A stretch of DNA of 64,000 nt from Escherichia phage vB_EcoM-Ro157lw. The number at the start of each line of letters is the position of its first letter. The first letter of the stretch is position 1. The notes under the pieces were generated by a model, which worked only from the letters and a program-made list of their open reading frames with translations, was not told the DNA's origin and did no database searches. The translations under genes and the position numbers were made by a program. Of the stretch, positions 1-4,883 are shown one piece after another. The DNA is taken from sequence record MH051335.1; one strand, 5' to 3'.

Positions 1-135
1 ATTTTGAATTAATTTAAATTAATTTTTTCTACATCCTCATACTTATGTTAATTTATATATTTAACGTATTATCCGTAAGATATAAGTAAAAACAAAGACT
101 TGCGGCAATACGGATGATACGTCATGATACGCTTC
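1..135. repeat. AT-rich tract plus iteron-like decamer CGGATGATAC (111-120) with partial copies; inverted paralog of the element at 15866-15938
   Basis: Direct reading: 111-135 and flanks match the reverse complement of 15861-15885 (one mismatch over about 25 bp); shared AATTAATTTAAATTA-type AT tract. Confidence 0.5.
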
Positions 136-359
136 AACCAGCCAGCAGCGGCTAAGTCATTGATTTGCATAACACGCGGCGAAAGGGATGGATTTCTTTT
201 ATACGTATCAAACAGTACACCAAGCACCACGGTCCGCTATTCATTAAGCATTGTGATTTATGTACGTTTACAGCCAATTTGAACATCAATCTGCACTTGA
301 ATATAATGTTCAATCATTGTATAATTCACACTATTAATTTGCACTATGGGATTTGCACT

Positions 360-833
360 ATGAGTCAAGATTATGTAGCAATGCCTGAAGACTTTGAAGA
401 CCCGCGATTTGCAGAGCATAATCAGGCATTATTCGATGAGTTCATTGACCTTGTTATTCAGGGCCATGACATGCGCGCAGCTTTTGCACTAGTATTTGGC
501 ATGGAGGTTGCGACCGATAACTACACTGGCCAGCGAATCCTCTGCACGCAACGCAATCCGTACTACAAGATGCGCTACAAAAAGCGTATGGAAGAGATGC
601 CATTGAAGGAATTGTGGAGCGTAAAGAGTTCCATCCACAATTTAGTGAAGCTTGTGCGTGATCCAGAAGTCGCGGCATCAGCCAAGCTTAATGCCATTCG
701 TGAACTGAATATCATCTACGGCATTACGATGATTGATGAAAACGGCAATAGTAAAATGGGCCGTTCCATGGATGATTTCTACAAGGATTTTGGAGAGGCG
801 GCCAAAGAGGGTGAGCAATTCTCCCGCCACTAG
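360..833 (+). CDS. hypothetical protein (start uncertain; frame is open back to a TTG at 165)
   Basis: ORF track 165..833; first ATG-initiated stretch MSQDY at 360; region upstream is occupied by motif copies; no clear SD. Confidence 0.5.
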   Translation: MSQDYVAMPEDFEDPRFAEHNQALFDEFIDLVIQGHDMRAAFALVFGMEVATDNYTGQRILCTQRNPYYKMRYKKRMEEMPLKELWSVKSSIHNLVKLVRDPEVAASAKLNAIRELNIIYGITMIDENGNSKMGRSMDDFYKDFGEAAKEGEQFSRH

Positions 834-852
834 CCAATTTGCACTATAAAAC

Positions 853-886
853 GGCCCTAGAACACATTTTCTCCACTTCTAGGGCC
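853..886 (+). other. stem-loop (10-bp perfect stem GGCCCTAGAA/TTCTAGGGCC, 14-nt loop) downstream of CDS 360..833
   Basis: Inverted repeat read directly; no U-tract, so not a classic terminator. Confidence 0.4.
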
Positions 887-1261
887 ATCGGTAATACGAC
901 GGGGAAGGCTGCAACCATAAACGCGTTAGAAAGTGTATTATTATAAGTCATCTTTTAGTCACTTTACGTAACAATTTACGACCTTCAGCCGTCCAGTCGA
1001 ACGACTCCACCAGCAGATTTGCACTATAACCTAAGACGATGCGCCCTTTCTCGTTATCAACCCGCCAACAAGTCTCGAATAGCATTCGATTTGCACTATT
1101 AACTATCGCCGCAGCGCGCGTTGGGTAAGCGCAATTTGCACTATGGTCGTAAAGGGATAAGGTGCGACCACTTCCGATGGACAACGTAGCGATGAGAATA
1201 AGCGTATTCATAAGCCACCAATTTGCACTATGAAAAGCGACCCCGAAGGGCCGCCATTCGA

Positions 1262-1888
1262 TTAGATGATCTGGAAGGTGTAGGACTTGTTGCCGAACTC
1301 AAAGTTTAAGCGCCCAGCTTCCTTGAGCTTCATACGGAAGCGAATGTGCTTGCTATCCGGTAAGCCCAGCGCGGCGAACGCTACGCGGACTGATTTGAAC
1401 TCGCCTACACCCTCGACCATAACGGCGTTACGCGTGAGACGCTTTTGCGCCACTTCCTTGTTATCCCAACTTTTTGCAATACCTTCGCTATTCGAACGGC
1501 GATGGGAAGGACTGGCAATTTTATCCGCGCCAACCGGAGTATCATTCAGGCCGCTCTTGACGAATGCTTCATACTCTTCGTCGGTCATCGCGTCGAGTTC
1601 TTCCTGAGTCGGCTCGGCCTTTTTAACGACCGCACGCGCCTTATGCGTTTTTACATCGCTGGACACTTCCTCGCACGGCTTCGCGTCTGGAATGGGCGAT
1701 TCGTTGGACGGCTCATCGAGCGCGTTTAAGGACTCGATTAACGCGATGACGCGAGTCTCAGCGGTGCGACGGTCCGCAAACTTCTTAATCGGTTTTGAGC
1801 CGGAGTTAGCGTTATAGAACGCAACGAGGTCGGCGGTCTTAGTTGCGATAACGTCGCCGCTAGTAGAGAAACGATTCAAGCTAACCAT
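1262..1888 (-). CDS. hypothetical protein
   Basis: ORF track; ATG with AGGAG SD on minus strand; CpG-rich, CTG-poor codon usage; followed by a short UUCG-loop hairpin and T-run. Confidence 0.6.
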   Translation of the reverse strand: MVSLNRFSTSGDVIATKTADLVAFYNANSGSKPIKKFADRRTAETRVIALIESLNALDEPSNESPIPDAKPCEEVSSDVKTHKARAVVKKAEPTQEELDAMTDEEYEAFVKSGLNDTPVGADKIASPSHRRSNSEGIAKSWDNKEVAQKRLTRNAVMVEGVGEFKSVRVAFAALGLPDSKHIRFRMKLKEAGRLNFEFGNKSYTFQII

Positions 1889-2029
1889 AATAAACTCCTA
1901 GTTTGGGAGCGGCGTTAACGACCTATTCGCTAACTCATCCCGTCCCGATATGAGTACATTATAATATAGTGTAGAAAAAAGTAAAGCACTTTTTCGATAA
2001 AAATGCGATAAATTATTTTATCTTTTTTC

Positions 2030-2057
2030 TTTACTTCTTCGTACACTCGCGTATACT
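2030..2057 (+). promoter_or_regulatory. sigma70-like promoter TTTACT-N16-TATACT inside a conserved ~45-bp element
   Basis: Element CTTTACTT.TTCGTACACT...GTTTATATCGAGA repeated upstream of 2113 and 2523. Confidence 0.45.
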
Positions 2058-2112
2058 TGTTTATATCGAGACGGGCGATGGCCTTCCTTCTACTAGCATC
2101 GGGAGCTTTATT

Positions 2113-2415
2113 ATGACTACTTTAATCTCTTCCATCCTTACTTACGACGAAGACCGTTTAACCGTTCGCTCTCTTATCGCCGCCGTTAACGCGGAACTAG
2201 AATCCAGCGCCATTAAGGTCCGCGCGGTCGCCTTCGTCGGCCTCTCCTTCGACGAAATTAAATACGCCGAACGTAGCGCCATCCGCTTCGCGAAGACCGA
2301 CGACGAAGCCGTCACCCTTATCGAGACGGTTACGCCGCGCGACGAAGCGTTAATTATCGTCGAGTATATCGACGTAGAAGGCGATAATGCTTATAAATAT
2401 TTTATCGCAAAATAA
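2113..2415 (+). CDS. hypothetical small protein (acidic)
   Basis: ORF track; ATG with GGGAG SD; promoter-like element upstream. Confidence 0.6.
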   Translation: MTTLISSILTYDEDRLTVRSLIAAVNAELESSAIKVRAVAFVGLSFDEIKYAERSAIRFAKTDDEAVTLIETVTPRDEALIIVEYIDVEGDNAYKYFIAK

Positions 2416-2426
2416 CGAAAAAGTGC

Positions 2427-2455
2427 TTTACTTATTCGTACACTAAGACTATAAT
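2427..2455 (+). promoter_or_regulatory. sigma70-like promoter TTTACT-N17-TATAAT (second copy of the conserved element)
   Basis: Consensus -10 hexamer; leader contains an 8-bp stem hairpin at 2478-2498. Confidence 0.5.
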
Positions 2456-2522
2456 GTTTTATATCGAGAGGGGATGAGGTAGCGAATAGGTCGCTACCCT
2501 CCCGACTAACTAGGAGAATATT

Positions 2523-2813
2523 ATGATTACTTTATCCGCTATCCGTTCCGCTCGCGTCGAAACTTCCGAAAACTCTAACGTATTTGGCGAAACCTTAGAG
2601 AGCGTTTATCTCTCTAACGTAGACGCGATTATCGAGTCTATTTATGAGCCGATCAACTTTCTCGACCTTTACAAGTATCGCGACGAGGACATCGTATCCT
2701 ACCGCGTAACGATTAACGGCTTCGTCTATACGATTACCGAAATCGGCGGCGAATATATCGCTGTACCGCAACTCGGCGGCGAAGTAACTTACTTTAAAAT
2801 CGTAAGCCTTTAA
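2523..2813 (+). CDS. hypothetical small protein (acidic)
   Basis: ORF track; ATG with AGGAG SD. Confidence 0.65.
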   Translation: MITLSAIRSARVETSENSNVFGETLESVYLSNVDAIIESIYEPINFLDLYKYRDEDIVSYRVTINGFVYTITEIGGEYIAVPQLGGEVTYFKIVSL

Positions 2814-2824
2814 GGAGAAGAAAG

Positions 2825-3034
2825 ATGACTAATATGAATAACTCTCTTAACGCGCGCGCCCATCGCACCGCCGTAATCGATATGTTTCGCGAGCTTAAGG
2901 AATTATGCGATAATATGAACGCGATGTTATCCATCGGCGGCTGGGGATACGAAGAAGAAGTTAAATACGCGGTTATGCGTCGCCGTCGCGATAACGTCCT
3001 TGGGCAAATTAAACGCGCCGGATTATTCCTTTAA
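2825..3034 (+). CDS. hypothetical small protein
   Basis: ORF track; ATG with AGGAG SD. Confidence 0.6.
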   Translation: MTNMNNSLNARAHRTAVIDMFRELKELCDNMNAMLSIGGWGYEEEVKYAVMRRRRDNVLGQIKRAGLFL

Positions 3035-3060
3035 TTATAATCACCCACCGTTACTAATAG

Positions 3061-3082
3061 GCCGCGCTTAGTCGCGGCTTTT
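3061..3082 (+). terminator. intrinsic terminator (GCCGCG/CGCGGC stem, 6-nt loop, TTTT)
   Basis: Hairpin plus T-run 27 nt after the stop at 3034. Confidence 0.55.
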
Positions 3083-3204
3083 CTTCGTCCCTATCTCGAT
3101 GCGCTTCTCCTCGAAAACTCCTTTATCCTTCCCTTCTTCGTCGCATAATCTTCGTCGAGATGCGCCTTAGTTCGCATAACAGGTATTACGTTAAATGGAG
3201 AACA

Positions 3205-3278
3205 TCGCGTAAGTCGTTGTTTTATATAGACACCTATATCGGAACGTTAAGGCGGGTCGCGTAAGTCGTTGTTTTATA
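3205..3278 (+). repeat. 22-bp perfect direct repeat TCGCGTAAGTCGTTGTTTTATA x2 (3205-3226, 3257-3278)
   Basis: Direct reading, period 52 bp, non-coding region. Confidence 0.85.
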
Positions 3279-3402
3279 AAGGCGCAAAACTTTCCCTTCG
3301 TTCCGAACTAAAACGAGAAATATGCCGACCCTTCGCCCGAAAATAGTACGCATGCGAAATTACCGACATCTAGAATAATCCCCACCGATATTATTCTGCG
3401 CG

Positions 3403-3462
3403 CAATCATTCGCTTTCGAACTATTATGCTTCATATTATTATGCGTCGAATCATTCGCTTTC
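3403..3462 (+). repeat. 15-bp direct repeat (C/G)AATCATTCGCTTTC x2 (3403-3417, 3448-3462); adjacent 8-bp-stem hairpin at 3372-3397
   Basis: Direct reading, period 45 bp. Confidence 0.8.
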
Positions 3463-3555
3463 TAATTGTAACGCTGGAAACTGTAACGGCGATTGATTAT
3501 TGCGTTCGTGTGGTTTTTAGGGCATGGGTCTTTTGGTGCGTTTTGGTACTTGATG

Positions 3556-3668
3556 AAATTTGCAGTACACTAATCAAAATACGACACATTTGGCCCACTA
3601 ACTTTTCAAAGAAAAAGTCCTAGACAGTACCGTACTATTTTGTGCCCACAGTAAATTTGCAGTACACT
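3556..3668 (+). repeat. 16-bp perfect direct repeat AAATTTGCAGTACACT x2 (3556-3571, 3653-3668); shares the ATTTGCA core with the 337-1231 array
   Basis: Direct reading, period 97 bp. Confidence 0.85.
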
Positions 3669-3737
3669 CCTGCGCGGCAGGCAAAATAAAGGGCCGCCAC
3701 AGCGACCCACGATTCACGGTTAAATCAGCAACACCCA

Positions 3738-4133
3738 CTATTCACTCTTATGGGCATCACCAAAGCCATCCGCAATCTGACTGATCAATGATTCAATGGA
3801 CACAGTTTTACCAATTGATCGAGCGGTAATAGCAAGCATATTATCAATCAAACCATGATTAGACGCATATGGTCCAGGTTTTGAATCATCTTCAGGACAA
3901 CCAAAAAGCTGGTCGCGAAGACTTTCAAGAGAACGCTCAATATTTTCCAGCTTCTCTTCTAAATCGGATTGGCGACGTAAAACCCACGTTAAGTCGCGGT
4001 TGCCGACTTCCAATCCATCAGAATCGCAAGATGGAGCGTCAATTTTGATACTTCCACTAAAGGCCATTCCGCTGCCTTTAGTATATGTATTGTGAATAGA
4101 ATCATTTTTATTTGACATATCATTACCTTTCAT
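3738..4133 (-). CDS. hypothetical protein (alternative start at 4118 has the better SD)
   Basis: ORF track. Confidence 0.55.
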   Translation of the reverse strand: MKGNDMSNKNDSIHNTYTKGSGMAFSGSIKIDAPSCDSDGLEVGNRDLTWVLRRQSDLEEKLENIERSLESLRDQLFGCPEDDSKPGPYASNHGLIDNMLAITARSIGKTVSIESLISQIADGFGDAHKSE

Positions 4134-4213
4134 GAGGGTGATTAACTTGAATTATAATAAAGCCGCATAGCGCGACATTCAAATCGGTTTGTTAATTGTA
4201 ACGATTGGATTCA

Positions 4214-4408
4214 TCAATCGATACCAACTGAGCCGATGTGCTGAAAGAACTCTGAATAAACTTCCTTCCAGTATTTACGGGCTGCTTTCTGAGCCTGTCC
4301 TTTGCGCTTGAAGCTTTTACCTTGAAATATGAAGCGGTCTTTTGGTGCGTAATACTCCACCACACCTTCCAGCCATTGTAAGAACGCTACTGATTCATTT
4401 TTATTCAT
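4214..4408 (-). CDS. hypothetical small basic protein
   Basis: ORF track; ATG with GAGGT SD. Confidence 0.55.
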   Translation of the reverse strand: MNKNESVAFLQWLEGVVEYYAPKDRFIFQGKSFKRKGQAQKAARKYWKEVYSEFFQHIGSVGID

Positions 4409-4415
4409 ATTAACC

Positions 4416-4883
4416 TCAATATTTTAATAAGAAAGCGCCCAACCAACTCTCCTCAACCTCGCGGCCAGTAGCCACACGGTCGGTCTTTGCTATGGGCCTG
4501 GATTCGCCGCATGGCAATCCGTCTTGCAGTTGTGTACTATTGCCAATTCTCACCATGACCTTTCCATCAGGGTCGATATAAGCGCGACAACCCATTATTT
4601 CGAGTCGTTGTAGACACTGGCGAATCGTTTTCAGCCTTTCACCGGACCGGATAGAGCGCGGTCGCGACCTCTGACCGTTCTTATTCACTGTACGCTTGAA
4701 GACCGGAATCTCATTGGTGCGTTGCGCTTTCGGTCGGTAGTAGGCTTCCTCGCCAGGAGTCGCACCTGGTGTTAATTCTCGCTTGAGAGCCTTTTCAATA
4801 TCGATGATCATAATTATGCCGCTGCAGCGTAAACAATTGCATAAGCGATTCCAAACAGCGCGGCAATGCATACCGTGCCCCAA
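4416..4883 (-). CDS. hypothetical basic protein (start uncertain; TTG at 4883, ATG at 4871 or 4811)
   Basis: ORF track; no clear SD at any candidate start. Confidence 0.45.
   Translation of the reverse strand: MGHGMHCRAVWNRLCNCLRCSGIIMIIDIEKALKRELTPGATPGEEAYYRPKAQRTNEIPVFKRTVNKNGQRSRPRSIRSGERLKTIRQCLQRLEIMGCRAYIDPDGKVMVRIGNSTQLQDGLPCGESRPIAKTDRVATGREVEESWLGAFLLKY

What the first reader, a model, noticed from the sequence alone, without database searches (positions are those of the whole stretch)
337..1231. Seven perfect, co-oriented copies of ATTTGCACTAT within 900 bp
An exact 11-mer occurs seven times on the plus strand (two tandem copies just before the ATG at 360, five more between 837 and 1231), with degenerate copies at 280-335. 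Chance occurrence is negligible. The copies flank and precede CDS 360..833 and fill the predicted minus ORF 948..1211, where they generate three S-A-N tripeptides, so that ORF is probably not real. A related 16-mer containing ATTTGCA is duplicated at 3556-3668. Candidate roles: binding array for a phage regulator or terminase small subunit (pac-like site), partition-like centromere, or phage-specific promoters.
Basis: seen in the sequence. Interest (0 to 1): 0.6.

Follow-up and report, generated by a model that had tools for sequence, protein, structure and literature searches.

The report
Co-oriented 11-mer array beside terminase gene
Seven identical, same-strand copies of ATTTGCACTAT surround the small-terminase gene, a few hundred bases from the physical left end of an E. 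coli Wifcevirus phage genome; they are most likely protein-binding sites that mark the DNA for packaging, but no experiment has tested this.

Summary
ATTTGCACTAT occurs exactly seven times, all on the + strand, at 337-1231 and nowhere else in 64 kb (0.14 expected by chance).

The window is a Wifcevirus (E. coli myovirus). It starts at the left physical end of the genome, inside a direct terminal repeat (DTR) of about 3.5 kb. CDS 360..833 is the small terminase (TerS; E=9e-33 to the solved E217 TerS).

The motif is selected at the DNA level:
- It is kept in 14 Wifcevirus genomes.
- It recurs as 8-15 co-oriented copies in the same place in Pantoea Kylevirus phages, whose TerS is only 40% identical.
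- Individual sites have turned over between the genera.

The ORF evolves as a coding gene and has homologues; the motif is overlaid on it.

The "related 16-mer" at 3556-3571 and 3653-3668 lies 23 and 120 bp beyond the right boundary of the DTR. Its homologue sits at the same offset in phage Kyle.

The best reading is a TerS/terminase recognition array, and the pair at 337/351 may also act as an operator on terS. Confidence is moderate (about 0.4). Promoter, centromere and origin readings fit poorly. An orientation-dependent, Chi-like signal is not excluded.

The parts
1..131 (.). Left physical end of the genome, which is the start of the direct terminal repeat. It carries its own end-proximal repeats: ATCCGTAAGA at 70-79 and ACGGATGATACGTCATGATACG at 110-131.
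   Evidence: The window aligns from base 1 with the starts of the WFH and Mansfield records. Mansfield annotates a PhageTerm DTR of 1-3673. In the WFC repeat junction these elements form a 27-nt imperfect inverted repeat centred about 6 bp from the boundary.
279..325 (+). Two overlapping sigma-70-like promoters: TTGAAC-17-TATAAT (279-307) and TTGAAT-17-TATAAT (297-325). They are upstream of terS, and the inferred transcription starts are near 314 and 332.
   Evidence: Consensus scan, 10 of 12 matches each. This is a pattern match only; the start sites are inferred.
324..334 (+). Degenerate copy ATTCACACTAT.
   Evidence: Two mismatches; matrix score 9.7 bits; invariant in 14 genomes.
337..347 (+). 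Motif copy 1, in the terS 5' leader.
351..361 (+). Motif copy 2, 14 bp after copy 1. It overlaps the first two bases (AT) of the terS start codon.
   Evidence: Eight of 14 relatives carry a 1-nt T insertion, giving TTTTGCACTAT at a spacing of 15.
360..833 (+). terS, the small terminase subunit (157 aa).
   Evidence: phmmer E=9e-33 over residues 3-147 to PDB 7UXE 'Small terminase', identified as phage E217 TerS in PMC9611059. Annotated as TerS in Mansfield. phrog_4783.
482..492 (+). Degenerate copy TTTTGCACTAG inside terS.
   Evidence: 12.6 bits.
837..847 (+). Motif copy 3, three bases after the terS stop codon.
853..886 (.). 10-bp-stem hairpin between the convergent genes terS and orf87, probably a bidirectional terminator.
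   Evidence: Folds at -10.2 kcal/mol, z=-4.1. Annotated as a terminator in WFH.
948..1211 (-). orf87, a real small gene. Its 87-aa product has a hydrophobic N-terminus. It carries motif copies 4-6 on its antisense strand.
   Evidence: Codon-position variation 5/5/27. 33% identical, E=7e-13, to PA1 L012:3599-3883(-). Homologues in Kyle and the MTx group.
1007..1014 (-). A single E. coli Chi (GCTGGTGG on the minus strand), directly next to motif copy 4.
   Evidence: Only 3 Chi sites occur in the 64 kb.
1017..1027 (+). Motif copy 4. It reads ATTCGCACTAT in 8 of 14 relatives, a synonymous GCA-to-GCG change in orf87.
1089..1099 (+). Motif copy 5.
1134..1144 (+). Motif copy 6.
1221..1231 (+). Motif copy 7, 9 nt upstream of the orf87 start codon on the other strand.
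   Evidence: invariant, flanks included.
1262..1888 (-). Conserved 208-aa protein (phrog_4730, called p4730 here) that bounds the array. In 11 of the 14 aligned genomes (this window included) its gene holds a further tandem motif pair, at window-equivalent 1512-1545; that pair is absent here.
3533..3534 (.). Right boundary of the direct terminal repeat, mapped from relatives.
   Evidence: The exact terminal duplications of WFH (3701 bp) and SP13, and the Mansfield PhageTerm call, all end at the sequence equivalent to window 3533. WFC ends 81 bp further right.
3556..3571 (+). Boundary element AAATTTGCAGTACACT, 23 bp outside the repeat. It shares ATTTGCA with the array motif.
   Evidence: The homologue CCAATTTCACAGTACACTAATCAG sits 22 bp outside the right boundary of the Kyle repeat.
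3653..3668 (+). Second copy of the boundary element.

Best explanation
The array is a set of co-oriented protein-binding sites in the terminal repeat that mark this DNA for the packaging machinery. The most likely reader is the ring-shaped small terminase, whose gene the array surrounds. TerS oligomers bound here would recruit the large terminase, which cuts at the repeat boundaries (base 1 and about 3533). The tandem pair at 337/351 fills the 5' leader of terS, so occupancy there would also damp terS expression. What is shown: the sites, their strand bias, their restriction to this region, their selection at the DNA level across two phage genera, the identity of terS, the position of the genome ends, and a partly similar element next to the other boundary. 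What is inferred: that TerS is the binder, and every step of cutting and regulation.
For: (1) CDS 360..833 is TerS. In several headful (pac) phages the recognition site lies in or next to terS (PMC9611059; P1 and lambda from my own knowledge). (2) The window begins at the physical left end, and the array starts 337 bp inside it. (3) The motif is found only in this region of the genome. (4) Selection acts on the DNA. Motif columns vary at 4-5 of 77 positions against 16% overall in 14 genomes. The same core recurs as about 15 co-oriented copies in Pantoea phage PA1 and 8 in Kyle, between terS and the p4730 gene, although TerS is only 40% identical. Where the motif overlaps orf87, the codons are kept as AGT-GCR-AAT at 33% protein identity. 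The Serratia homologue, which lies outside any such array, has no Ser-Ala-Asn at those positions. (5) Most Wifcevirus genomes carry an extra 14-bp-spaced pair written into the p4730 coding sequence, so sites are gained and lost as units. (6) A partly similar element (ATTTGCAGTAC) lies 23 bp outside the right repeat boundary, and its homologue lies at the same offset in Kyle. In Serratia phage MTx, a 9-mer from its own repeat next to terS recurs 27 bp from its right boundary. (7) Direct, same-strand repeats suit a rotationally symmetric ring (E217 TerS is a decamer). (8) A Glu that is invariant in nine lineages without the motif is Gln, Lys or Arg, followed by Arg, in the three lineages with it (window Q61-R62).
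Against: No binding data exist. The solved homologue, E217 TerS, showed no appreciable DNA binding in vitro (review PMC9611059). The array lies 337-1231 bp from the left cut, farther and more spread out than lambda cosB or T7 pacB (my own knowledge). A different set of repeats, ATGATACG and ATCCGTAAGA in an inverted arrangement, flanks the left boundary itself and could be the true cutting signal. More distant relatives with a TerS homologue (Pbunavirus, L015, L021) have no comparable array downstream of terS. Motif identity does not track overall TerS divergence: PA1 TerS is about as far from MTx TerS as from Wifcevirus TerS. The TerS residue difference in point (8) could simply reflect shared ancestry. 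The boundary element shares only 9 of 11 bases with the motif.
Confidence: 0.4

Rival explanations
1. The array is an operator or roadblock for another DNA-binding protein, of phage or host, that controls the early genes of the terminal repeat (terS, orf87, p4730). It would have nothing directly to do with packaging.
Against: Most copies are inside or downstream of genes, not at promoters. In PA1 and Kyle no copy occupies the terS leader. The annotated 'transcriptional regulator' at 2825-3034 is present in only 8 Wifcevirus records and is absent from Kylevirus. p4730 is conserved in relatives that lack the motif and has no residue specific to the motif-bearing group in its C-terminal domain. 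Asymmetric sites in direct orientation are unusual for dimeric repressors (my own knowledge).
Confidence: 0.22
2. The motif is an orientation-dependent signal, like Chi, read by an enzyme that enters or tracks from the left DNA end. That enzyme could be a host helicase-nuclease, a defence system, or the packaging motor itself.
For: All copies share one polarity in three lineages. In Kyle (10 copies), PA1 (7) and MTx (4), exact host Chi sequences cluster in the same kilobase, all on the same strand and with the same polarity as the motif, interleaved with it. That polarity is the active one for RecBCD entering at the left end (established Chi polarity, my own knowledge). Site positions turn over while density and orientation are kept, as with Chi or KOPS.
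Against: No enzyme is known to read ATAGTGCAAAT. Sharing orientation with Chi has a 50% chance expectation. A ring-shaped binder also explains the common orientation. Wifcevirus has only one Chi here.
Confidence: 0.12
3. The array is a replication origin, with the 11-mers acting as iterons for a phage initiator.
For: The repeats are direct, asymmetric and lie beside or inside a conserved gene (p4730) whose product may bind nucleic acid, as with lambda ori inside gene O (my own knowledge).
Against: Spacing is irregular, from 14 to 486 bp. No AT-rich unwinding element adjoins the array. Cumulative GC skew has no turning point here; its minima are near 10-12 kb and 54-56 kb and follow gene orientation. 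The replication genes lie about 40 kb away.
Confidence: 0.08
4. The copies are phage-specific promoters.
For: A short conserved word near a genome end resembles the promoter sets of T7-like phages. The core weakly resembles a T4 MotA box (7 of 9 bases; my own knowledge).
Against: Five of seven copies point against the local genes, and copy 351 overlaps the ATG. No conserved -10-like partner lies at a fixed distance on either strand (read). No RNA polymerase or sigma factor is annotated in a complete relative. The motif is absent from the other 60 kb, where most genes lie.
Confidence: 0.03
5. The motif is a by-product of a repeated peptide (Ser-Ala-Asn) in orf87, or a chance occurrence.
For: Three copies encode Ser-Ala-Asn at positions conserved between Wifcevirus and PA1. 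The five downstream copies are all in phase modulo 3.
Against: Four of the seven copies are outside orf87. Kyle and MTx homologues lack most or all of the Ser-Ala-Asn tripeptides. Codon choice is fixed. Chance expectation is 0.14 copies.
Confidence: 0.01

Closest known systems
Lambda cosB (R3-R2-R1 elements bound by gpNu1, between cosN and the Nu1 gene); my own knowledge, plus the general statement in PMC9611059
   Same: Short repeated sites lie next to the DNA end and next to the small-terminase gene, on the side of the cut that is packaged.
   Different: cosB is compact (under 200 bp), has three 16-bp sites that are not all co-oriented, needs IHF bending, and belongs to a cohesive-end phage. 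Here there are 7-10 11-mers over 0.9-1.2 kb, all co-oriented, partly inside genes, in a phage with a 3.5-kb direct terminal repeat.
P1 pac (seven hexamer elements, four plus three, flanking the cut inside pacA); SPP1 pacL/pacR boxes; the P22 22-bp pac inside gene 3. My own knowledge for P1; SPP1 and P22 as in PMC9611059
   Same: There are multiple short recognition elements in or beside the terS gene, unique in the genome. For SPP1 there are multiple contact points flanking the cut.
   Different: Those are headful phages with imprecise ends and compact sites. TerS binding to pac is itself weak or unproven in vitro for several of them.
T7/T3 concatemer-junction signals (pacB, pacC) and the heptamer repeat arrays beside the T7 terminal repeat; my own knowledge
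   Same: A phage with a direct terminal repeat carries short repeat arrays next to the repeat, which are thought to serve concatemer processing.
   Different: The T7 repeat is 160 bp and its terminase genes are far from the ends. Here terS and the array lie inside the repeat, so each virion DNA carries two copies of both.
12-bp inverted repeats bracketing the long terminal repeats of Twort-like staphylococcal phages; my own knowledge
   Same: Conserved short elements mark the boundaries of a long terminal repeat. Compare the AAATTTGCAGTACACT element at 3556 and its Kyle homologue.
   Different: Those are single inverted elements at the boundaries, not an internal co-oriented array.
Chi (GCTGGTGG), the polar signal for RecBCD
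   Same: Strict co-orientation relative to a DNA end, dispersed copies, tolerance of position turnover, and physical interleaving with true Chi sites in Kyle and PA1.
   Different: The sequence is different, no known reader exists, and the motif is confined to about 1 kb.

Membership tests
Terminase (TerS) recognition site of tailed phages (pac / cosB type) | Lies in or next to the small-terminase gene | tested here: met
   Copies flank terS 360..833 and one weak copy lies inside it. TerS identity rests on E=9e-33 to 7UXE.
Terminase (TerS) recognition site of tailed phages (pac / cosB type) | Lies close to the DNA end that terminase makes | tested here: inconclusive
   The first strong copy is 337 bp from the left end. 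A partly similar element lies 23 bp from the right boundary of the repeat. However, other repeats lie closer to the left cut.
Terminase (TerS) recognition site of tailed phages (pac / cosB type) | Unique to one region of the genome | tested here: met
Terminase (TerS) recognition site of tailed phages (pac / cosB type) | Bound sequence-specifically by TerS | not testable with these tools
   The only indirect evidence is a TerS residue change specific to the motif-bearing group. The E217 homologue did not bind DNA appreciably in vitro.
Terminase (TerS) recognition site of tailed phages (pac / cosB type) | Required in cis for packaging | not testable with these tools
   Needs a plasmid-transduction or mutant-phage assay.
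Promoters (sigma-70 or phage-specific) | Motif at a fixed distance upstream of genes, oriented with transcription, with a partner element | tested here: not met
   Five of seven copies are antisense to the local genes, one overlaps an ATG, and no conserved -10 partner exists.
Iteron-type replication origin | Regularly spaced direct repeats next to an AT-rich unwinding element and an initiator | tested here: not met
   Spacings are 14, 486, 180, 72, 45 and 87 bp. There is no skew inflection. No initiator was identified.
Partition centromere (parS with ParA/ParB) | Partner ParA/ParB genes and, usually, palindromic sites | tested here: not met
   No such genes are annotated in the complete Bas99 genome. 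The sites are asymmetric.
Polar (Chi-like) signals | Strict orientation relative to a DNA end | tested here: met
   All copies lie on one strand in Wifcevirus, PA1 and Kyle, with the same polarity as the clustered Chi sites.
Polar (Chi-like) signals | Read by a translocating enzyme whose activity changes at the site | not testable with these tools
   No candidate enzyme is known.
Known RNA families | Match to an Rfam model, or a stable structure | tested here: not met
   No relevant Rfam match. The motif regions do not fold better than shuffles.

The most novel reading that the evidence does not exclude
The 11-mer is a new orientation-dependent signal, analogous to Chi, that is read from the left DNA end by a translocating enzyme (a host nuclease or helicase, a defence system, or the terminase motor). 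It would work together with the co-oriented clusters of true Chi sites that Kylevirus and Myosmarvirus carry in the same kilobase, either to protect the entering end or to drive recombination between terminal repeats.
Probability: 0.1. Interest if true: 0.8.

Novelty: new variant of a known kind. Interest (0 to 1): 0.45.

Why it matters
To my knowledge, no packaging or end-forming signals have been defined for myoviruses with kilobase-long direct terminal repeats, and I found no published account of this motif. Wifcevirus and its Pbunavirus relatives are of interest for therapy and biotechnology, and very fast replication has been reported for Wifcevirus (PMC11990801). This array gives a concrete and easily mutated candidate for the cis signal. 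The solved E217-type TerS, which so far lacks a known DNA target, gives a matching candidate protein. If TerS binds these sites, an open question about how this TerS family recognises DNA becomes directly testable. If it does not, the array points to an unknown site-specific reader acting on the terminal repeat. Knowing the signal would also help in designing synthetic or rebooted genomes of these phages.

Tried and rejected
- Scanned IMG/VR for pairs of TTTGCACTA.
- Tested the 69-aa 'transcriptional regulator' at 2825-3034 as the binder. It is absent from Kylevirus and from most Wifcevirus records.
- Looked for equivalent arrays downstream of terS in Pbunavirus and three metagenomic relatives. 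None was convincing.
- Looked for shared words between the left and right repeat boundaries. Only CAGTACAC was shared.
- Tested helical phasing. The best period was 11.7-12.1 bp in four site sets, but each is individually weak and all are confounded by the modulo-3 spacing inside genes.
- Searched for the motif in the literature. It appears only in unrelated primer lists.
- The primary E217 terminase paper (PMC10026623) is not held.

Full report
**Observation.** ATTTGCACTAT occurs exactly seven times in the window, at 337, 351, 837, 1017, 1089, 1134 and 1221. All copies are on the + strand, against 0.14 expected from shuffles. A weight matrix built from these sites and from related ones scores only the seven above 19 bits in 64 kb. 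Weak copies lie at 324, 482, 3558 and 3655, and the remaining hits are at chance level. Copy 351-361 ends in the first two bases of the ATG at 360. The duplicated AAATTTGCAGTACACT is at 3556-3571 and 3653-3668.

**Where the window comes from.** The first 6 kb are 92-96% identical to 28 Wifcevirus genomes, which are E. coli and Shigella myoviruses such as ECML-117, WFH, WFC and Mansfield. Window base 1 aligns with base 1 of the WFH and Mansfield records. Mansfield annotates a PhageTerm-predicted direct terminal repeat (DTR) of 1-3673. The original description gives a terminal repeat of about 3.7 kb for both WFC and WFH (PMC6563267). The WFC, WFH and SP13 records carry both repeat copies. The exact duplications are 3784 bp in WFC and 3701 bp in WFH. 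The right boundary maps to window 3533|3534 for WFH, SP13 and Mansfield, and 81 bp further right for WFC. So the array lies 337-1231 bp from the left physical end, inside the repeat, and every virion DNA carries it twice.

**Genes around the array.**
- CDS 360..833 is the small terminase. phmmer gives E=9e-33 over residues 3-147 to PDB 7UXE. The review PMC9611059 identifies 7UXE as the decameric TerS of Pseudomonas phage E217, whose terS gene is likewise far from its terL gene.
- In the complete relative Bas99, terL lies about 9 kb to the right of terS. A long rightward block of small genes ends just before the repeat.
- Two sigma-70-like promoters (279-307 and 297-325, each 10 of 12 matches) precede terS. 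The inferred transcription starts are near 314 and 332, so copies 337 and 351 would fill the whole 5' leader (pattern match only).
- A strong hairpin at 853-886 separates terS from the convergent orf87.

**The minus ORF is real.** In an alignment of 14 Wifcevirus genomes, the variable sites of ORF 948..1211 fall 5/5/27 by codon position. That is the same pattern as terS (4/3/51) and gene 1262..1888 (6/10/89). Its product is 33% identical (E=7e-13) to an ORF at the same place in Pantoea phage PA1. tblastn also finds homologues in Pantoea phage Kyle and in Serratia and Erwinia phages. The motif is laid over a coding sequence on the opposite strand.

**The motif is selected as DNA.**
- Within Wifcevirus, 4-5 of the 77 motif columns vary, against 16% of all columns. 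The tolerated changes are position 4 (T to C) and position 1.
- PA1 has about 15 copies of WTYYGYACTAN and Kyle has 8. All are on the terS strand, and all but one PA1 copy (inside terS at 3197) run from the 3' end of terS to the end of the p4730 gene. No copy lies on the other strand in the 5.5-6.5 kb examined. TerS in these phages is only 40% identical to the window's.
- Where the motif overlaps orf87 in Wifcevirus and PA1, the codons are always AGT-GCA/G-AAT. Kyle keeps only one of the three Ser-Ala-Asn tripeptides. The Serratia MTx homologue, which lies elsewhere in its genome, has none. The protein therefore does not need them; the DNA does.
- Eleven of the 14 aligned genomes (this window included) carry a further pair, TTTTGCACTACGCAATTTGCACTAT, written into the p4730 coding sequence. 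Its 14-bp spacing matches that of 337/351. This window, ECML-117 and Eco4M-7 have an unrelated patch there.
- Sites are thus gained and lost, while the array and its polarity persist.

**Link to the repeat boundaries.** The element at 3556-3571 (ATTTGCAGTAC is two mismatches from the motif) begins 23 bp outside the right boundary. In Kyle, whose 3603-bp repeat is exactly duplicated in its record, the homologous CCAATTTCACAGTACACTAATCAG begins 22 bp outside the right boundary. In Serratia phage MTx (PhageTerm repeat 1-3566), a different 21-bp repeat occurs three times just downstream of terS, and a 9-mer from it recurs 27 bp before the right boundary. These parallels tie the repeats next to terS to end formation, but only loosely. 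The left boundary has its own flanking repeats, ATGATACG and ATCCGTAAGA, arranged as a 27-nt imperfect inverted repeat centred about 6 bp from the cut. The two boundaries share almost nothing else.

**Who reads the motif?** The candidates, in turn:
- TerS is the leading candidate for three reasons. Its gene sits in the array. Recognition sites of several headful phages lie in or beside terS. And identical sites in one orientation suit a rotationally symmetric ring.
- A Glu that is invariant in nine lineages without the motif is replaced by Gln, Lys or Arg, followed by Arg, in the three lineages with it. This is suggestive, but it is confounded by shared ancestry.
- Against TerS: E217 TerS did not bind DNA appreciably in vitro. 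The array is also more spread out, and farther from the cut, than known cosB or pacB sites.
- The neighbouring 208-aa protein (phrog_4730) belongs to a large family (830 clusters at 50% identity). Its model is confident (pLDDT 85), but the fold matches are weak and go to small helical nucleic-acid-binding domains. It is conserved in relatives that lack the motif, without residues specific to the motif-bearing group, so it is a poor candidate for a specific reader.
- The annotated regulator at 2825-3034 is an accessory gene that is absent from Kylevirus.

**Rivals.**
- Promoters fit poorly. Five of seven copies are antisense to the local genes, no conserved -10 partner follows any copy, and no polymerase or sigma factor is annotated.
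- An iteron origin fits poorly. Spacing is irregular and GC skew has no turning point here.
- A centromere has no support, because there are no partition genes.
- An operator role for the 337/351 pair is plausible and compatible with TerS binding. It cannot explain the conserved downstream array, because PA1 and Kyle have no copy in the terS leader.
- A polar, Chi-like role cannot be excluded. Kyle has 10 exact host Chi sequences, PA1 has 7 and MTx has 4. All are on one strand, in the same kilobase, with the same polarity as the motif, and oriented to be active for RecBCD entering at the left end. The window has a single Chi at 1007, directly next to copy 1017.

**Comparison with known systems.** The array most resembles the multi-element terminase recognition sites of lambda (cosB), P1 and SPP1 (pac), and the repeat arrays beside the T7 terminal repeat. 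It differs from them in several ways. It is spread over about 1 kb and strictly co-oriented. It is partly embedded antisense in coding genes and lies inside a kilobase-long terminal repeat. It is conserved across genera with turnover of individual sites. I found no published description: the motif string appears only in unrelated papers, and the Wifcevirus papers do not discuss it.

**Verdict.** The array is a real, conserved cis-element and is not a common word. Its most likely role is terminase recognition, with possible autoregulation of terS, at moderate confidence. It is a new variant of a known kind rather than a new kind of system. Interest is moderate.

Noticed in passing
L157 (Pantoea phage Kyle) 255-4518; L012 (PA1) 2861-4433; L010 (MTx) 179-1276; window 1007-1014: Exact host Chi sequences (GCTGGTGG) cluster on one strand in the first 1-2 kb of the terminal repeat: 10 in Kyle, 7 in PA1, 4 in MTx and none on the other strand. 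They are oriented to be active for RecBCD entering at the left genome end. Wifcevirus keeps only one, next to motif copy 1017.
   Followed up: partly
window 70-79 and 110-131; L008 3410-3860 (WFC repeat junction; boundary at 3641): The left boundary of the terminal repeat is flanked on both sides by other short repeats (ATGATACG, TACGTCATG, ATCCGTAAGA). These include a 27-nt imperfect inverted repeat centred about 6 bp from the boundary. They are a candidate cutting signal distinct from the 11-mer array.
   Followed up: partly
window 3534-3580; L157 3604-3650; L010 1-25: The sequence just outside the right repeat boundary is conserved between Wifcevirus and Kylevirus (AATTT..CAGTACACTAATCA.AAT at +22/23). 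The left end of MTx begins with a similar GTACACTAA within a near-palindrome (TAGTGTGCGTACACTA).
   Followed up: partly
window 1512-1545 (inside gene 1262..1888, minus strand): A patch of about 34 nt differs completely between this window (with ECML-117 and Eco4M-7) and the other 11 Wifcevirus genomes. In those 11 it encodes a tandem motif pair with 14-bp spacing. The reading frame is kept, so about 11 residues of the protein are exchanged.
   Followed up: partly
window ~3533 versus ~3614: The deposited terminal repeats disagree by 81 bp. WFH, SP13 and Mansfield end at the equivalent of 3533. WFC ends at about 3614, midway between the two AAATTTGCAGTACACT copies.
   Followed up: no
window 2825-3034: A 69-aa 'transcriptional regulator' (phrog_10377) in the terminal repeat is present in only 8 of the Wifcevirus records. 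Its other relatives (about 45% identity) are in some 300 Klebsiella Webervirus siphophages, so it looks like a mobile accessory gene.
   Followed up: partly
window 948-1211 (minus strand); L158 357-734: orf87 encodes a small protein with a hydrophobic N-terminus and a conserved FCWRL..EEF(D/N)W core. In Serratia Myosmarvirus its homologue lies about 5.8 kb from the end, outside the terminal repeat.
   Followed up: partly
window 1262-1888 (minus strand): phrog_4730 belongs to a very large uncharacterised family (830 clusters at 50% identity). It has two conserved domains: an N-terminal ELVAFYN..KKFADRKTAE helical motif and a C-terminal EFKSVR.AF..L.LP.SKHIRFR..LK domain. The AlphaFold model is confident (pLDDT 85), but there is no clear fold match.
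   Followed up: partly
window 337-1231; L002, L012, L157 arrays: Site positions give their best Rayleigh periodicity at 11.7-12.1 bp in all four site sets (each p about 0.01-0.05 before correction for multiple testing). The five downstream copies in the window are all in phase modulo 3. These two effects are confounded with each other.
   Followed up: partly
L011 360-715, L027 3515-3860, L022 3560-3820, L014 2685-2930: More distant relatives carry their own dense repeat clusters within about 450 bp upstream of terS. These are GATATAACGG in both orientations (Salmonella PCSE1 and L027), GAACTTGCGGA (L022) and TCGCCCACCAACG (Pseudomonas E217). Lineage-specific repeats beside terS appear to be a general feature of this phage group.
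   Followed up: no
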